IMG/VR virus record: IMGVR_UViG_3300009130_000010
Location: 1-64,000 of that record
Strand: one strand, 5' to 3'
Length of the DNA: 64,000 bases
From: a virus
The translations under genes were made by a program, and so were the position numbers. Position 1 is the stretch's first letter; every line of letters begins with the position of its first letter. The notes beneath the pieces were generated by a model. That model was not told where the DNA came from and searched no databases. It saw only the letters and a list, made by a program, of their open reading frames with translations. Of this stretch, positions 31,794 through 48,246 are shown one piece after another.

Positions 31794-32255
31794 TTATGCG
31801 TCTTCAGTGAAGTCGTCGTCATCTCCGCCGACTAACGTATTGTCGTCGCCAGATTCTTCCATTCTAACTTTACCAGTAGCCGCCGCTTCATCTAGAGACC
31901 ATTGAATTGATTCTCCGTCTAAAGCATTTGAACCTGTAGCACTTGGTTTAGCTAAAGTAACTTTACGACCTGAAATTTTGCTCACGCCATAAGTTTCTGA
32001 ATCAGCACCTTGTACTGAAATTGACATTTCAGTAGCCGCCAAAGCCGCAGGTAATTTTCCTGTAGTAAGTGTACAATCAAAAGTTCCAGCTGTGCCGATT
32101 TCTTCAACACGGAATTTTTTACTGCCAATTTGTTTTACGATATAGCCTTCTTTAACAGCCGTACCGTTATGAAAATTTACTTTGATTTCTAATCCTGAAG
32201 CAGTCGGGCCTACGCCTTCGACTCCAAAGAATTTTTTATTAAGTGGACGTCCCAT
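31794..32255 (-). CDS. Putative virion/head decoration protein
   Basis: MGRPLNKKFFG...GYIVKQIGSKKF; has its own late promoter, structured leader, AGGAG SD and terminator. Confidence 0.65.
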   Translation of the reverse strand: MGRPLNKKFFGVEGVGPTASGLEIKVNFHNGTAVKEGYIVKQIGSKKFRVEEIGTAGTFDCTLTTGKLPAALAATEMSISVQGADSETYGVSKISGRKVTLAKPSATGSNALDGESIQWSLDEAAATGKVRMEESGDDNTLVGGDDDDFTEDA

Positions 32256-32353
32256 TTTTTTTCTCCTAAGTTACGTTCTATGTAATACGCGGTGGGTCAA
32301 TTCCGCATAAGTCCTCTGTTGAGGCACGATTTTCGACACTAGTATTTATCCAA

Positions 32354-32953
32354 TTAAATGTGTTTTCTTACTACATCATAAACACATTTATGACCATAAG
32401 CATTTAATTTTCTATCGTTAGTACAATCTCTAAAAAACGATCCAACGTTTGTTAAATCAGGATGTTGTTCCATTACCCATCCCCAAAATTGAGGTATTTC
32501 TCCCCTCTTAAGATAAGGTATAATAAAAAGTTTATCAGTTGAAATGTTTCTATTTTCTTGTACAAAAAATAAACAACGTTTATCTTTTGACCATTGATCT
32601 AATATATTATAAACAAAATTAGATTGCCATTTACAATAATCATCTATTATTTGAGGTCCATGATCATCTGTATTATGTATTGGGCCTCTACTATCCCAAT
32701 TTAAAGATCTATGTGACGAGGGTACTACACTTATAAAAAAATTATCATCGATGTTACTGTTTATAATAATACTAGCATAATACAATGGACTTACTGAATG
32801 TGACGTAAATGGTCCTTCTAGTAATTCAGGTGTTAAACCTAGCTCTTCTGCTAATAATTCCCACCAATGTTCACCTTGTTTTACATTAAAATTATCATAA
32901 GCACCTGGGCTTGTTATTGTTTGATCACCGTACACTATTAACTTCTTACTCAT
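32354..32953 (-). CDS. Degenerate SGNH/GDSL-like protein
   Basis: LIVYGDQ (GDS-like), WWELLAEELG, C-terminal LNAYGHK; nucleophile Ser absent. Confidence 0.45.
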   Translation of the reverse strand: MSKKLIVYGDQTITSPGAYDNFNVKQGEHWWELLAEELGLTPELLEGPFTSHSVSPLYYASIIINSNIDDNFFISVVPSSHRSLNWDSRGPIHNTDDHGPQIIDDYCKWQSNFVYNILDQWSKDKRCLFFVQENRNISTDKLFIIPYLKRGEIPQFWGWVMEQHPDLTNVGSFFRDCTNDRKLNAYGHKCVYDVVRKHI

Positions 32954-46301: not shown

Positions 46302-46752
46302 ACTTACAACCTACGCATCATTGATTGGAGTCATCGGTGCCATTGGAGGAGGCTTTTACGCTTGGGGTGAATTCAACACTCGTTTAACAGCTATTGAAAA
46401 TAAACAATTTGTAGTAAACGAAACTGTTGATCTTACACCAACAAATGATAGAATTTCAGCATTGGAAGTAGATCTAATCGATCGAATAAATGCTTTGAAA
46501 GAACAAGTAGAGTCAGGTCAAGAAATTGATCTTACTGAAATATCAGAAACTATTGTAGAACTAAACCGTTCATTAACAGCAAAAATAAACGAATCTAGCG
46601 ATAGTATTAAATCTGATTTAAATGCTATGAAAGAAACATTAACAGAAGTTGATAAAAAAGTTGCTATAGCATTAAAAGAGAATGAGTTACAAGACGAAAA
46701 AATAGAATCAAATAGACTTAAAGCAACAAACCCGTTAGCTAACTCAAACTAA
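46285..46752 (+). CDS. N-terminally membrane-anchored coiled-coil protein
   Basis: YASLIGVIGAIGGGFYAW TM segment followed by heptads; ends NPLANSN; overlaps the previous gene. Confidence 0.75.
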   Translation: MSLINKLTTYASLIGVIGAIGGGFYAWGEFNTRLTAIENKQFVVNETVDLTPTNDRISALEVDLIDRINALKEQVESGQEIDLTEISETIVELNRSLTAKINESSDSIKSDLNAMKETLTEVDKKVAIALKENELQDEKIESNRLKATNPLANSN

Positions 46753-46824
46753 ATTCCATTATTTAATGGCCGTACACCAAATAACATACTTTAATGTTTA
46801 GTACAGTCATCTAAATAATAACCT

Positions 46825-47013
46825 ATGTACACAAGATACAACGTGGTTAACAAGCAAACCAAAGATATTTATTGTACGGTTTTTTCGTTAGAAGAAGCCC
46901 AGCAAGTTATTGACATGGAAAAAATAAACCATCCTCATTGGGAATTAATCGTAGAAAAAATAGAAGTAAGTCCGGTTAAAAATGGTTTTGGCCGTGATCC
47001 TGATTTACATTAA
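46825..47013 (+). CDS. Small hypothetical protein
   Basis: 62 aa ORF with TAAATA 7 nt upstream. Confidence 0.6.
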   Translation: MYTRYNVVNKQTKDIYCTVFSLEEAQQVIDMEKINHPHWELIVEKIEVSPVKNGFGRDPDLH

Positions 47014-47069
47014 GAGCTCTTGAGCGACCAGTCAGAGTTTCCTGAAACATTAATATACTAGTAGAACTT

Positions 47070-47517
47070 TAACAATATCAGCTTCGCTGATATGTTTTTT
47101 CGCTTTCGCTCAAAACACTTATTTGTTATAACGAAATTTATTTCGTTTATCATTCAGATATTTTGCCCATACTTCACCCGCTAGGGGCAAAGTATAAGGT
47201 AGTTCATCATTCGAGTAACTCACCCATAACGTCTAAGAAGATTTAGTATTACTACTAACGGAGGCGGAAACCCGCTAACCCCCTACTTCAGCTTCACATA
47301 AGTTTCGGAACATTTATTCACCCAGAACGTCGAATGTTTAAATGTTGAAGTTGTATCTTTTTCACAGAGCTTCATCTTTTAGCCTTTAAGTATAATGGCC
47401 TTCACTTGCTACAACCCAGATCTGAGTACAGGTGTCTGTACCCTCAAGGGTATGTTTGTGAGGTAGCTATATAGTTGTTAATGTTTGCCTGAATGTTGCT
47501 GTTAATAGTATGTTATC
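47070..47517 (-). ncRNA. Candidate large structured non-coding element (RNA or ssDNA)
   Basis: Longest ORF-free gap in the window, about 9 stems, G-U pairs and GUAA/GAAA tetraloops on the minus strand. Confidence 0.55.
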
Positions 47518-48030
47518 TTAGGCACACAATGTTTTAACCAAATCTGAATTTCTTGTGAAAAATTCCTCAAAATTTGATATGCGCCAGTTAGAGCCTGTAG
47601 TGTTAGACCAGTAGTCTATATAGTTTTTTGATTTTGAATTGTGCCTAGTTTCTATGGCTATGAATTTGCCTACTTGATTGAATTTCATTATTAATATATT
47701 AAAGTCGTCTGGTACTGCTACATCCATTAGTTGAGATATCCACTCTTCTAACATTGGAATCGGTTCAGGTTGTAATAGTCTGTGAAACGGAAATGCTTTA
47801 TAAAATTTACATTCCGCATTTAGTTTAGGAAAACTTTGTCCAGGGACAATGTCTCCTTTGAAGGCTCTTACTTGACCTTCGTGAAGTATTTCCATTCTAG
47901 CTTTATTAGACCCGCCCACATAAGCACCGGAACCAGGAGCTCTTATAAAACTTTCATTGTATAGTCCGGACAAGAATCTTGCGACATCTCGCTCCCAACC
48001 TGATCCTTTTGCTTTTTGTGGGCTTGGCAT
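47518..48030 (-). CDS. Holliday junction resolvase (PD-(D/E)xK, Hjc-like)
   Basis: KAKGSGWERDVA, RAPGSGA, GDI, ECKFY. Confidence 0.85.
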   Translation of the reverse strand: MPSPQKAKGSGWERDVARFLSGLYNESFIRAPGSGAYVGGSNKARMEILHEGQVRAFKGDIVPGQSFPKLNAECKFYKAFPFHRLLQPEPIPMLEEWISQLMDVAVPDDFNILIMKFNQVGKFIAIETRHNSKSKNYIDYWSNTTGSNWRISNFEEFFTRNSDLVKTLCA

Positions 48031-48066: not shown

Positions 48067-48246
48067 TTACATAGCGTTCTTTTTTTCTTGTATTTCTGCT
48101 CTACGAGATTTGCCTAACTTAGATAATTCACCTAGTGCCTTACGAGCTCTAGTAGCCGCCGCTTTATTACCTTTGCTATCAAACTTGTCAGATTCGGTCA
48201 TATAATTATTATATGCCTCAGTTATTTGCTCATGTAGTGTTGACAT
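48067..48246 (-). CDS. Small basic histone H1/Hc1-like DNA-binding protein (59 aa)
   Basis: Below the ORF-track cutoff. MSTLHEQITEAYNNYMTESDKFDSKGNKAAATRARKALGELSKLGKSRRAEIQEKKNAM; AGGAG SD; TAAATA at 48287. Confidence 0.8.
   Translation of the reverse strand: MSTLHEQITEAYNNYMTESDKFDSKGNKAAATRARKALGELSKLGKSRRAEIQEKKNAM

What the first reader, a model, noticed from the sequence alone, without database searches (positions are those of the whole stretch)
47070..47517. ~450-nt densely structured non-coding element downstream of the Holliday junction resolvase
Seen: this is the only ~500-nt gap in a tightly packed window and it is tiled with stems (plus-strand coordinates). They are GCTAC/GTAGC (47408-12/47463-67); two overlapping, mutually exclusive hairpins at 47426-41 and 47439-52; TGAAG/CTTCA (47346-74); an 8-bp stem (47309-46); GCGG/CCGC (47264-75); UUAGUA-GUAA-UACUAA with a GNRA loop on the minus strand (47243-58); an 11-bp stem that needs two G-U pairs and so works only on the minus strand (47169-95), with an alternative partner at 47162-68; a stem at 47130-47; and GCGAAAGC (47102-09) and an 8-bp GAA-loop hairpin containing GCGAAGC (47075-93). 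It lacks tRNA, tmRNA, RNase P and group I intron signatures. Established: GCGAAGC and GCGAAAGC are exceptionally stable DNA mini-hairpins known from ssDNA phage origins. Inference: an unrecognised large phage ncRNA co-transcribed with the resolvase, or an RNA-primed replication origin.
Basis: partly seen in the sequence, partly recalled or inferred. Interest (0 to 1): 0.85.

Follow-up and report, generated by a model that had tools for sequence, protein, structure and literature searches.

The report
Large twin-box RNA of jumbo phages
The 450-base gene-free gap encodes a real, intricately folded and pseudoknotted non-coding RNA, one member of a widespread family in giant T4-related phages that RNA catalogues hold only as a fragment, and what it does is still unknown.

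Summary
Window 47070-47517 (minus strand) encodes a structured RNA of about 400-450 nt.

- **Distribution:** Its 146-nt core occurs once per genome. A probable, diverged copy lies in cultured E. coli phage 121Q.
- **Structure:** Covariation supports the helices, including a three-way junction and a pseudoknot. G-U pairs and consensus folding energy pick the minus strand.
- **Known families:** Rfam, tRNA and tmRNA scans find nothing here. In four other phage contigs the same core sits about 85 nt downstream of the Rfam motif Polynucleobacter-1, so that orphan motif is an alternative 5' module of this RNA.
- **Nuclease link:** The upstream nuclease is a swappable neighbour. It is PDDEXK here and a small GIY-YIG protein in most relatives.
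- **The "DNA mini-hairpins":** These read better as a terminator region; the last one is a two-way intrinsic terminator between convergent operons.
- **Unexplained feature:** Two 7-nt boxes are identical within each RNA but differ between phages. I found no partner for them.

Function is unknown; a trans-acting scaffold is my best guess. This scan had already noted the same family on other genomes.

The parts
47518..48030 (-). Upstream neighbour: 170-aa PDDEXK_15 nuclease gene, annotated 'RusA-like Holliday junction resolvase' in PHROGs. Context only, not part of the RNA.
   Evidence: Pfam PF24608, E 6e-20; phrog_244, E 4e-12. Most relatives have a 141-aa SegE-type GIY-YIG gene in this slot.
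47468..47517 (-). Leader directly after the stop codon, with about three 12-nt repeats (AUUAACAGCAAC / AUUCAGGCAAAC / AUUAACAAC). Copy number varies in relatives. Whether it belongs to the RNA is not known.
   Evidence: Read from the sequence. L001, L004, L110 and L209 show 3-6 similar units. Tandem Repeats Finder did not report them at score 30.
47403..47467 (-). 5' domain. P1 is GCUAC 47463-47467 with GUAGC 47408-47412. It encloses a CCC/GGG closing stem and the extended hairpin GGGUACAG-ACAC-CUGUACUC (47414-47451).
   Evidence: RNAalifold on the window clade shows GC to CG and AU to GC changes. The family alignment shows 3-5 pair types per pair. The same domain occurs in 47 'type-B' loci.
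47381..47400 (-). Hairpin GGCC...GGCU.
47347..47373 (-). Hairpin GAAG-CUCUG...CAAC-CUUC. This is one of the best-covarying helices.
   Evidence: Example pair types: UA 30, GC 29, CG 9; GC 52, UA 7, CG 7, AU 6.
47309..47346 (-). Long hairpin AACAUUUAAACAUUC...GGGUGAAUAAAUGUU.
   Evidence: 6-7 consecutive pairs, all varying.
47302..47305 (-). Pseudoknot PK1, 5' strand AAAC. It pairs with the tetraloop GUUU at 47268-47271.
   Evidence: 97.7% paired against 65.1% in shuffles. Covariation score 0.906 against 0.239, reached by 0 of 500 shuffles; slid controls 0.15 or less. All four pairs change on both sides (UUGA/UCAA, AAAC/GUUU, CGUA/UACG). Kept in phage 121Q as UUGCU/AGCAA.
47233..47289 (-). Three-way junction core. 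Pa is GAAG 47286-47289 with CUUC 47237-47240. Pb is GGGGG-UUA-GCGG-GUUU-CCGC-CUCC (47260-47283), with a constant central G-U pair. Pc is UUAGUA-GUAA-UACUAA (47243-47258).
   Evidence: Pa covaries at all four pairs. Pb is invariant, partly because the loci were found with this pattern. Pc covaries: GUA/UAC, GUG/CAC, GCC/GGC, GCA/UGC and others.
47204..47228 (-). Repeat unit 1, UAUGGG-N7-ACUC-GAAUGAU-GA. Box 1 is the 7-mer at 47206-47212.
47170..47194 (-). Hairpin H4, UACUUUGCCCC-UAG-CGGGUGAAGUA, which contains G-U pairs.
   Evidence: Five of nine pairs change on both sides.
47147..47171 (-). Repeat unit 2, UAUGGG-N7-AUCU-GAAUGAU-AA. Box 2 is the 7-mer at 47149-47155, identical to box 1.
   Evidence: The 7-mers are identical in 67 of 76 non-redundant RNAs, with 12 different 7-mers across the family.
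47131..47146 (-). Small hairpin ACGAAAU-AA-AUUUCGU.
   Evidence: Many relatives have a hairpin of different sequence at this place.
47095..47115 (-).
   Evidence: Conserved with covarying outer stem across the family.
47075..47093 (.). 8-bp hairpin AUAUCAGC-GAA-GCUGAUAU. It is a two-way intrinsic terminator and probably marks the 3' end of the RNA.
   Evidence: The terminator scan on the + strand finds the hairpin followed by GTTTTTT. On the minus strand an A-run precedes it and UUGUUAAAGUU follows. The stem covaries in the family.
46825..47013 (+). Convergent 62-aa ORF that ends the opposing operon. Context only.
   Evidence: Conserved by tblastn in 14 related loci of both nuclease types.

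Best explanation
What it is (shown). Window 47070-47470, possibly starting as far up as 47517, is a single-copy gene on the minus strand for a structured non-coding RNA of about 400-450 nt. The fold has these parts, 5' to 3':
- a 5' hairpin domain;
- a three-way junction with a constant G-U pair;
- a pseudoknot that ties the junction's tetraloop to the strand in front of it;
- two tandem units, each showing the same 7-nt box (GAAUGAU here);
- two 3' hairpins, the last of which is a two-way intrinsic terminator shared with the convergent operon.

It belongs to a large modular family of T4-related jumbo phages. Both the 5' module and the core can be exchanged. In some phages the Rfam motif Polynucleobacter-1 is the 5' module.

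How it works (inferred, not shown). It is made as the tail of the Hc1-nuclease transcription unit, or from a promoter I could not recognise. It then acts in trans as a folded scaffold. The scaffold presents two identical single-stranded boxes to a sequence-specific partner, either two copies of one RNA or a dimeric protein. The nuclease gene next door is conserved gene order, not a working partner.
For: Conservation and copy number
- The element is kept at 78-86% nucleotide identity in five close relatives, with 16 compensated pairs among five sequences.
- The core pattern occurs in at least 120 IMG/VR contigs.
- Core model R1 scores 48-156 bits in all 83 loci searched.
- R1 finds exactly one copy in the window's own record, in a 204-kb relative, and in a complete 346,856-bp genome.

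Structure
- 99.0% of cells are paired, against 87.1% in shuffles. The covariation score is 0.320 against 0.113, reached by 0 of 500 shuffles.
- Pseudoknot: 97.7% paired, score 0.906 against 0.239, 0 of 500 shuffles.
- 68 of 95 predicted pairs are at least 85% canonical, and 33 of those have three or more pair types.

Strand
- G-U cells outnumber A-C cells 891 to 145.
- Consensus folding energy is -106.2 against -87.9 kcal/mol for the family, and -90.4 against -63.3 for the window clade, both in favour of the minus strand.

Not coding, not a known RNA
- No ORF longer than 34 aa; no tRNA or tmRNA; no Rfam family.

3' end
- A terminator hairpin with a T-run on the opposite strand.

Link to Polynucleobacter-1
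- In four contigs, RF01718 (104-111 bits) is followed about 85 nt later by the R1 core (69-70 bits).

Nuclease not a partner
- 99 of 125 loci have a SegE-type GIY-YIG gene and 14 have PDDEXK, both in the same Hc1-...-small-ORF setting.
- A complete GIY-YIG-type genome has no PDDEXK_15.
- In the seven loci checked, either an ORF of 164-343 aa with no Pfam match lies between nuclease and RNA, or (L180) the GIY-YIG gene itself is longer, 355 aa with a NUMOD3 motif.
- The 121Q copy has no recognisable nuclease beside it.

Twin boxes
- The two boxes are identical in 67 of 76 RNAs, with 12 different 7-mers across the family.
- Each variable box position shares high mutual information only with the same position in the other box.

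Expression (weak)
- One 250-nt contig from a metatranscriptome library covers 47198-47447 with 2 differences.
Against: - Transcription, transcript ends and stability are not shown. The single RNA-library contig has depth 2.7 and could be carried-over DNA.
- No promoter was found.
- No partner for the boxes was found, and several tests came back at background:
  - no covarying complement inside the RNA or within -1600/+900 nt;
  - no preference for box 1 to pair with its own box 2 (-4.54 against -4.59 kcal/mol);
  - no excess of the box or its complement in the 103-kb record or in a complete 347-kb genome.
- The boxes could therefore be structural, or kept alike by recombination between the two repeat units.
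- Module swapping would also fit several small RNAs cut from one precursor.
- The invariance of helix Pb is partly an artefact of how the loci were collected.
Confidence: 0.6

Rival explanations
1. A cis-acting 3' untranslated element of the Hc1/nuclease transcript. In this reading the fold protects the mRNA from 3' exonucleases, terminates transcription, or feeds back on expression of the upstream genes. It has no function in trans.
For: - It starts directly after the stop codon on the same strand, with no recognisable promoter.
- It always lies at the 3' end of a transcription unit and ends in a terminator.
Against: - A 400-nt fold with a pseudoknot, a constant junction and twin boxes is far more than protection or termination needs.
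- The upstream gene is exchanged between unrelated families, or separated from the RNA by other ORFs, while the RNA is kept.
- In 121Q a hairpin followed by a T-run that looks like a terminator lies between the upstream gene and the RNA.
Confidence: 0.13
2. Not one RNA but an array of several small stable RNAs cut from one precursor, as in the T4 tRNA/stable-RNA cluster. The pieces would be the 5' hairpin module, the junction module and the two box units.
For: - The family is modular. The 5' domain is replaced by Polynucleobacter-1 (141 nt) in four contigs.
- The core is replaced by a different 'type-B' core in about 70 loci that keep the 5' domain and the 3' hairpins.
Against: - The pseudoknot joins the strand upstream of the junction to its loop.
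- Order and spacing of the modules are fixed.
- No RNase P-type or tRNA-like processing signal was found.
Confidence: 0.1
3. A replication origin at which a structured transcript forms an R-loop and primes DNA synthesis.
For: - Short 12-nt repeats of variable number lie in front of the fold.
- The region is AT-rich and single-copy.
- T4 origins do use transcripts as primers (my own knowledge).
Against: - It lies where transcription converges, not where it diverges.
- GC skew changes only with gene strand, and similar switches occur at about 42 kb and 57.5 kb.
- Selection acts on RNA base pairs, including G-U pairs, and on a pseudoknot. A primer does not need these.
- Earlier notes of this scan disagree with each other on this point.
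Confidence: 0.05
4. A guide or cofactor RNA for the adjacent small nuclease. The twin boxes would act as short programmable recognition sequences.
For: - Nearly every non-truncated locus has a domain-only nuclease directly upstream: 141-aa GIY-YIG or 170-aa PDDEXK.
- The boxes vary between phages the way guide sequences do.
Against: - Two unrelated nuclease folds occupy the slot.
- Other ORFs can intervene.
- 121Q has no nuclease beside the RNA.
- Close homologues of both nucleases occur without the RNA in cultured phages PA5oct, SCTP-2, Melnitz and P-SSM2.
- The complement of the box is not enriched nearby or genome-wide.
- Seven nucleotides is very short for a guide.
Confidence: 0.04
5. A DNA-level signal. 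In this reading GCGAAGC and GCGAAAGC act as extra-stable single-stranded DNA mini-hairpins, for example at an origin or a packaging site.
Against: - In relatives the loop letters change (CGAAG, CGUAG, CUUUAG, GAAA, GAUAG) while the stems covary. The hairpin is conserved, not the DNA motif.
- The last hairpin has the T-run of an ordinary terminator.
Confidence: 0.03

Closest known systems
Polynucleobacter-1 RNA motif (Rfam RF01718; Weinberg et al. 2010, Genome Biol 11:R31, PMC2864571)
   Same: - In four IMG/VR phage contigs a full RF01718 match (104-111 bits) sits just behind the nuclease gene.
- About 85 nt downstream on the same strand comes the same 146-nt core found in this window.
- So both are versions of one RNA at one genomic slot. 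Both are orphan RNAs from aquatic samples.
   Different: - The window has no match to RF01718 at all: E > 10 in the region and no hit in the whole record.
- Its 5' module is a different hairpin domain.
- Rfam describes only the 141-nt 5' module and lists it as an sRNA. The junction, the pseudoknot and the twin boxes are not catalogued.
Large ornate RNAs of unknown function often linked to phages (GOLLD, ROOL; also OLE, raiA; Kretsch et al. 2025, PMC12286853)
   Same: They share size class (hundreds of nt), many covarying helices, pseudoknots, occurrence in phages and unknown function.
   Different: - No sequence or model similarity: Rfam holds those families and none matches.
- This RNA is not next to tRNA genes.
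- Whether it forms homo-oligomers is untested.
- The concerted twin boxes have no counterpart known to me.
Nuclease-associated guide RNAs (HEARO/omega RNA of IscB, TnpB reRNA)
   Same: A structured RNA encoded directly beside a small nuclease gene.
   Different: - Those RNAs go with one nuclease family and carry a long guide at one end.
- Here the nuclease family is swapped or absent while the RNA is kept.
- No target for the boxes was found.
Repeat RNAs that evolve in concert with a protein partner (type III antitoxin ToxI repeats)
   Same: Tandem units inside one RNA keep the same short sequence within a genome and differ between genomes.
   Different: - There are only two units.
- Only 7-9 nt are kept alike; the hairpins that follow differ.
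- No endoribonuclease partner is known. This is an analogy from my own knowledge, not tested here.
Two-way intrinsic terminators between convergent genes
   Same: The hairpin at 47075-47093, flanked by an A-run and a T-run, fits exactly.
   Different: This explains only the last roughly 40 nt of the element.

Membership tests
Polynucleobacter-1 RNA (RF01718) | Match to the Rfam covariance model at or above 37 bits | tested here: not met
   No hit at E <= 10 in window 46700-47800. No hit in the whole 102.9-kb record.
Polynucleobacter-1 RNA (RF01718) | Same genomic slot and same downstream core as bona fide RF01718 loci | tested here: met
   Core model R1 scores 114 bits in the window. It scores 69-70 bits about 85 nt downstream of RF01718 in L078/L216, L213, L214 and L215.
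Twin-box jumbo-phage RNA (unnamed family defined here by model R1) | Three-way junction: Pa, plus hairpin Pb with AGUAGGGGG...CCGCCUCC and a central G-U pair, plus hairpin Pc | tested here: met
   Window 47233-47289; R1 scores 114.1 bits, E about 1e-20.
Twin-box jumbo-phage RNA (unnamed family defined here by model R1) | Pseudoknot between the Pb tetraloop and the strand 5' of Pa | tested here: met
   AAAC 47302-47305 pairs with GUUU 47268-47271. The family covaries strongly at these four pairs.
Twin-box jumbo-phage RNA (unnamed family defined here by model R1) | Two 7-nt boxes identical within one RNA | tested here: met
   GAAUGAU at 47206-47212 and at 47149-47155.
Twin-box jumbo-phage RNA (unnamed family defined here by model R1) | A transcribed, stable RNA | tested here: inconclusive
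   One 250-nt contig of an RNA library lies at 47198-47447, at depth 2.7. Contigs show neither strand nor ends.
tRNA / tmRNA | Cloverleaf, or tRNA-like domain with tag reading frame | tested here: not met
   ARAGORN finds none in the whole window.
RNase P RNA, group I/II introns, GOLLD, ROOL, OLE, HEARO and all other Rfam 15 families | Covariance-model match | tested here: not met
   No match at E <= 10 in the region. No match at gathering score in 12 related loci. Among 20 PDDEXK loci the only match was RF01718 in L078.
Intrinsic (rho-independent) terminator | GC-containing hairpin followed by a U-run | tested here: met
   47075-47093 followed by GTTTTTT on the + strand. The U-tract on the minus strand is weaker (UUGUUAAAGUU).
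Replication origin | Skew switch independent of gene strand, with initiator sites and an unwinding element | tested here: inconclusive
   The skew switch coincides with the change of gene strand, and two similar switches lie elsewhere. Short repeats are present in the leader. There are no replication data.
RNA-guided nuclease system | Obligate pairing of one nuclease family with the RNA, and a guide with findable targets | tested here: not met
   PDDEXK and GIY-YIG are interchangeable, and 121Q has neither beside the RNA. No targets were found.

The most novel reading that the evidence does not exclude
The twin boxes are programmable recognition elements. The constant pseudoknotted scaffold would hold two identical 7-9-nt single strands that pair with two copies of one nucleic-acid partner, for example a host or phage tRNA or mRNA. 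The middle of the box is almost always AUG, AUA or AUC. On this reading the boxes change in step because the partner differs between phages. That would make this a new class of trans-acting phage RNA with a bivalent, evolvable specificity.
Probability: 0.15. Interest if true: 0.85.

Novelty: new variant of a known kind. Interest (0 to 1): 0.7.

Why it matters
- **Rarity.** Large, highly structured bacterial and phage RNAs of unknown function are rare. Each earlier one (RNase P, tmRNA, OLE, GOLLD, ROOL) has led to new biology.
- **Reach.** This family is widespread in aquatic giant phages and is single-copy at a fixed genomic position.
- **A lab system.** It probably has a copy in a cultured E. 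coli phage (121Q), so its function can be tested at the bench.
- **An old orphan reinterpreted.** It shows that a 2010 orphan Rfam motif, Polynucleobacter-1, is only the first module of a much larger RNA.
- **A concrete puzzle.** Two boxes stay identical within each RNA but differ between phages, with no partner in cis. That points to a specific unknown partner and gives an obvious experiment.

Tried and rejected
**Searches for known relatives**
- blastn of the locus against 50,697 deposited phage genomes found no match.
- PA5oct, SCTP-2, Melnitz-3 and P-SSM2 have homologues of the neighbouring nucleases. They have no large gap behind them and no convincing R1 hit; Melnitz scored 17.3 bits at E 0.3, which I treat as noise.

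**Partner of the twin boxes**
- No complement inside the element, in the flanks, or by mutual information.
- No preferred box 1-box 2 duplex.
- No enrichment in the 103-kb record or in a complete 347-kb relative.
- In the window itself CAUUCAG and CAUUCGA are complementary to the boxes plus their prefixes, but relatives do not keep this. I reject it as chance.

**Other structural ideas**
- Earlier notes of this scan mention a second pseudoknot. My scans for runs of three or more covarying non-nested pairs found none beyond PK1.
- A long-range pairing ACUAUUAAC/GUUAGUAGU was predicted in the window clade. I reject it, because relatives that lack the 5' strand fold the 3' strand into the local Pc hairpin, with covariation.
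- I considered a box C/D or kink-turn reading of AUGAUGA/CUGA. The box variants GAUAAU, GUCGAAA and GAUCAA do not keep the G-A pairs.
- I considered small ORFs starting in the boxes. The AUG is not conserved.
- I considered target-site duplication. It does not explain the two boxes changing in step.

**Bacterial genomes**
- The core pattern gave 18 hits in 596 Gb, about what chance gives. Only three contigs passed the model: two in a Haliscomenobacter MAG and one in a Legionellales MAG. These are probably phage contigs binned with bacteria.

**Sequencing runs**
- Of the four RNA libraries laid on the locus, only X15 had a contig inside the element. The other three covered only the neighbouring genes, and some stretches of the element had no cover at all. 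Contigs cannot rank expression, so I draw nothing from that.

**Promoters**
- TATAAATA late promoters lie in front of five genes in the window but not in front of the RNA.
Full report
**Setting**

The window comes from a 102.9-kb IMG/VR virus record that CheckV rates 25% complete. DNA runs that hold it are marine or seawater metagenomes. Gene content marks it as a T4-related jumbo phage: a baseplate hub, T4-type TATAAATA late promoters in front of structural genes, and relatives such as PA5oct and SCTP-2.

The finding lies between convergent genes:
- On the minus strand: an Hc1 histone-like gene (48067-48246) and a 170-aa PDDEXK_15 nuclease (47518-48030), which PHROGs calls 'RusA-like resolvase'.
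- On the plus strand: a conserved 62-aa ORF that ends at 47013.

All listed stems are present. No ORF in the gap exceeds 34 aa. There is no tRNA or tmRNA and no Rfam match, even at E 10. Folding of the single sequence beats shuffles only modestly on both strands (z -2.8 and -2.4). That alone would not be convincing.

**Relatives decide it**

Loci encoding the nuclease were fetched from IMG/VR. Five close relatives keep the whole element at 78-86% identity, with 16 compensated pairs among five sequences.

A covariance model of the 146-nt core (R1) gave these results:
- It scores 48-156 bits in all 83 loci tried.
- It finds exactly one copy in this record, one in a 204-kb relative, and one in a complete 346,856-bp genome with terminal repeats.
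- On the model-based alignment, 99.0% of cells pair, against 87.1% in shuffles. The covariation score is 0.320 against 0.113 (0 of 500 shuffles), and slid controls reach 0.105 at most.

In a separate 76-sequence alignment, 68 of 95 predicted pairs are at least 85% canonical, and 33 of those show three or more pair types.

Caveat: helix Pb looks invariant partly because the loci were collected with that pattern.

**Strand**

- G-U cells outnumber A-C cells 891 to 145.
- The consensus fold is more stable on the nuclease-sense strand: -106.2 against -87.9 kcal/mol for the family, and -90.4 against -63.3 for the window clade.

**Anatomy in window coordinates**

1. A leader with about three 12-nt repeats (47468-47517).
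2. A 5' domain (47403-47467).
3. Three hairpins (47381-47400, 47347-47373, 47309-47346).
4. A three-way junction (47233-47289). It consists of Pa (GAAG/CUUC), Pb (with its constant G-U pair and a GCGG-GUUU-CCGC tip) and Pc (the GUAA-loop hairpin).
5. Two tandem units, each ending in the 7-mer GAAUGAU (47206-47212 and 47149-47155), separated by hairpin H4 (47170-47194).
6. A small hairpin (47131-47146).
7. Two 3' hairpins (47095-47115 and 47075-47093).

Earlier notes of this scan mentioned pseudoknots, so I searched for non-nested covariation. I found one clear case: the Pb tetraloop pairs with the strand in front of Pa.
- In this window it is AAAC 47302-47305 with GUUU 47268-47271.
- Elsewhere it is UUGA/UCAA, CGUA/UACG and others.
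- 97.7% of cells are paired, with a score of 0.906 against 0.239 (0 of 500 shuffles).

I could not find a second pseudoknot.

**The 3' hairpins**

The last hairpin is followed by GTTTTTT on the plus strand and preceded by an A-run, so it is an ordinary two-way terminator for the two converging units. GC skew only follows gene strand. I see no support for an origin or a single-stranded DNA signal.

**Relation to known RNAs**

In one nuclease locus (L078), Rfam found a full Polynucleobacter-1 RNA (RF01718, 103 bits) directly behind the nuclease gene. R1 finds the core of the present RNA about 85 nt further on. Three more contigs, fetched with a Polynucleobacter-1 pattern, show the same pairing.

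Polynucleobacter-1 is an orphan motif from Weinberg et al. 2010 (PMC2864571). It is therefore the 5' module of a variant of this RNA. The window's RNA carries a different 5' module and does not match RF01718.

A further 70 or so nuclease loci keep the window-type 5' domain and the 3' hairpins but have a different central part and give no R1 hit. So the family is modular.

**The nuclease is a neighbour, not a partner**

- Of 125 core-bearing loci, 99 have a 141-aa SegE-type GIY-YIG gene that ends about 200-260 nt before the core. Fourteen have PDDEXK. The other 12, nearly all cut short on the upstream side, showed neither.
- Hc1 upstream and the small ORF downstream occur with both nuclease types.
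- A complete genome of the GIY-YIG type has no PDDEXK_15.
- In the seven loci checked, either an ORF of 164-343 aa with no Pfam match lies between nuclease and RNA, or (L180) the GIY-YIG gene itself is longer, 355 aa with a NUMOD3 motif.
- Homologues of both nucleases occur in cultured phages without the RNA.

**A probable cultured member**

R1 gives only 16.9 bits (E 0.011 within 4 kb, 0.9 genome-wide). The hit lies in a 612-nt unannotated gap (NC_025447 192,745-193,356). It keeps these features:
- Pa;
- Pb as GAGAG/CUUUC, with the central G-U pair;
- Pc with a GUAA loop;
- the pseudoknot as UUGCU/AGCAA;
- H4;
- two near-identical boxes, GCGUCAA and CCGUCAA.

I rate it a probable distant member. 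Its neighbours have no Pfam domains.

**The unexplained feature**

In 67 of 76 non-redundant RNAs the 7-mer after ACUC (box 1) equals the 7-mer after AUCU (box 2). Yet 12 different 7-mers occur across the family, for example AGAUGAU 23, GGAUAAU 15, AGAUAAU 9 and GAAUGAU 2.

- Each variable position shares high mutual information only with its twin in the other box.
- I found no covarying complement in the RNA or its flanks.
- Cognate boxes do not pair with each other better than non-cognate ones.
- Neither the box nor its complement is over-represented in this record or in a complete relative.

Two identical sites that change in step suggest a sequence-specific partner acting in trans. That is an inference. 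Recombination between the two repeat units or an unknown structural constraint is not excluded.

**Expression**

One 250-nt contig from a metatranscriptome library lies inside the element (47198-47447, 2 differences, depth 2.7). This is a weak hint only.

**Verdict**

- This is a real, strand-specific, pseudoknotted non-coding RNA gene.
- It belongs to a large family that is uncatalogued apart from its Polynucleobacter-1 fragment.
- Function is unknown. My best guess is a trans-acting scaffold with two identical recognition boxes.
- The origin and DNA-hairpin readings are unlikely.
- The same family was noted on other genomes earlier in this scan. My tests agree with those notes on the main points.

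Noticed in passing
window 32253-32326 (-): Rfam freshwater-2 RNA (RF02980) scores 53.4 bits against a cut-off of 49.9. It lies in the gap between two minus-strand genes (31794-32255 and 32354-32953), so it would be the leader of the 153-aa gene. This is a second orphan RNA motif in the same phage.
   Followed up: no
window 47468-47517 (-); L001 3514-3590; L110 and L209 upstream of their RNA: Short tandem units of about 12 nt (UUAACAGCAC / UUCAGGCAAAC / UUAGGCAC-like) lie between the nuclease stop codon and the first stem of the RNA. There are 3 to 6 copies in different phages. They could be protein-binding sites or part of a promoter.
   Followed up: partly
L006-L080 (about 70 loci), about 500-600 nt downstream of the PDDEXK gene: A sister 'type-B' RNA. 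It shares the 5' hairpin domain and the 3' CGAAG-loop hairpins, but has a different, strongly conserved central part (for example GGUAGUGCUGAAUAGCACUACCAUGGCU). It gives no hit to core model R1 or to Rfam.
   Followed up: partly
L086 8538-8963 and 99 similar loci; G005: One gene slot is filled by either a PDDEXK_15 or a 141-aa domain-only GIY-YIG nuclease. A complete 347-kb genome with the GIY-YIG form has no PDDEXK_15. This looks like replacement of one small nuclease by an unrelated one with the same role.
   Followed up: partly
phage records P-SSM2 (PSSM2_218), S-ShM2 and many cyanophages: Homologues of the small GIY-YIG nuclease (Pfam SegE_GIY-YIG, E 1e-37 for the query) are deposited as 'NAD synthetase', and PHROG 447 carries the same name. 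This is probably a propagated misannotation.
   Followed up: no
L221 and L225 (Haliscomenobacter MAG EUL_031, contigs of 148 and 183 kb); L223 (Legionellales MAG SP228): These 'bacterial' MAG contigs carry full-scoring copies of the phage RNA core (95-154 bits). They are probably jumbo-phage contigs binned with bacteria.
   Followed up: no
window 24730, 29559, 33312 (-); 42323, 57537 (+): Exact T4-type late promoter boxes (TATAAATA) lie about 25-40 nt in front of structural genes. There are only 5 in 64 kb, fewer than chance (10.7), so the word seems to be avoided elsewhere.
   Followed up: no
window 48067-48246 (-): A 59-aa Hc1 (chlamydial histone H1-like) protein gene (PF07432, E 3e-13). It is conserved just upstream of the nuclease-RNA pair in many relatives.
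   Followed up: no
L240 1942-2010 (NC_025447 about 192,741-192,809): In phage 121Q, a promoter-like site with an extended -10 box (TGnTATAAT) is followed at once by a strong hairpin with a T-run (GGTGAC...GTCACC TTTTTTT). Both lie between gene 415 and the RNA gap.
   Followed up: no
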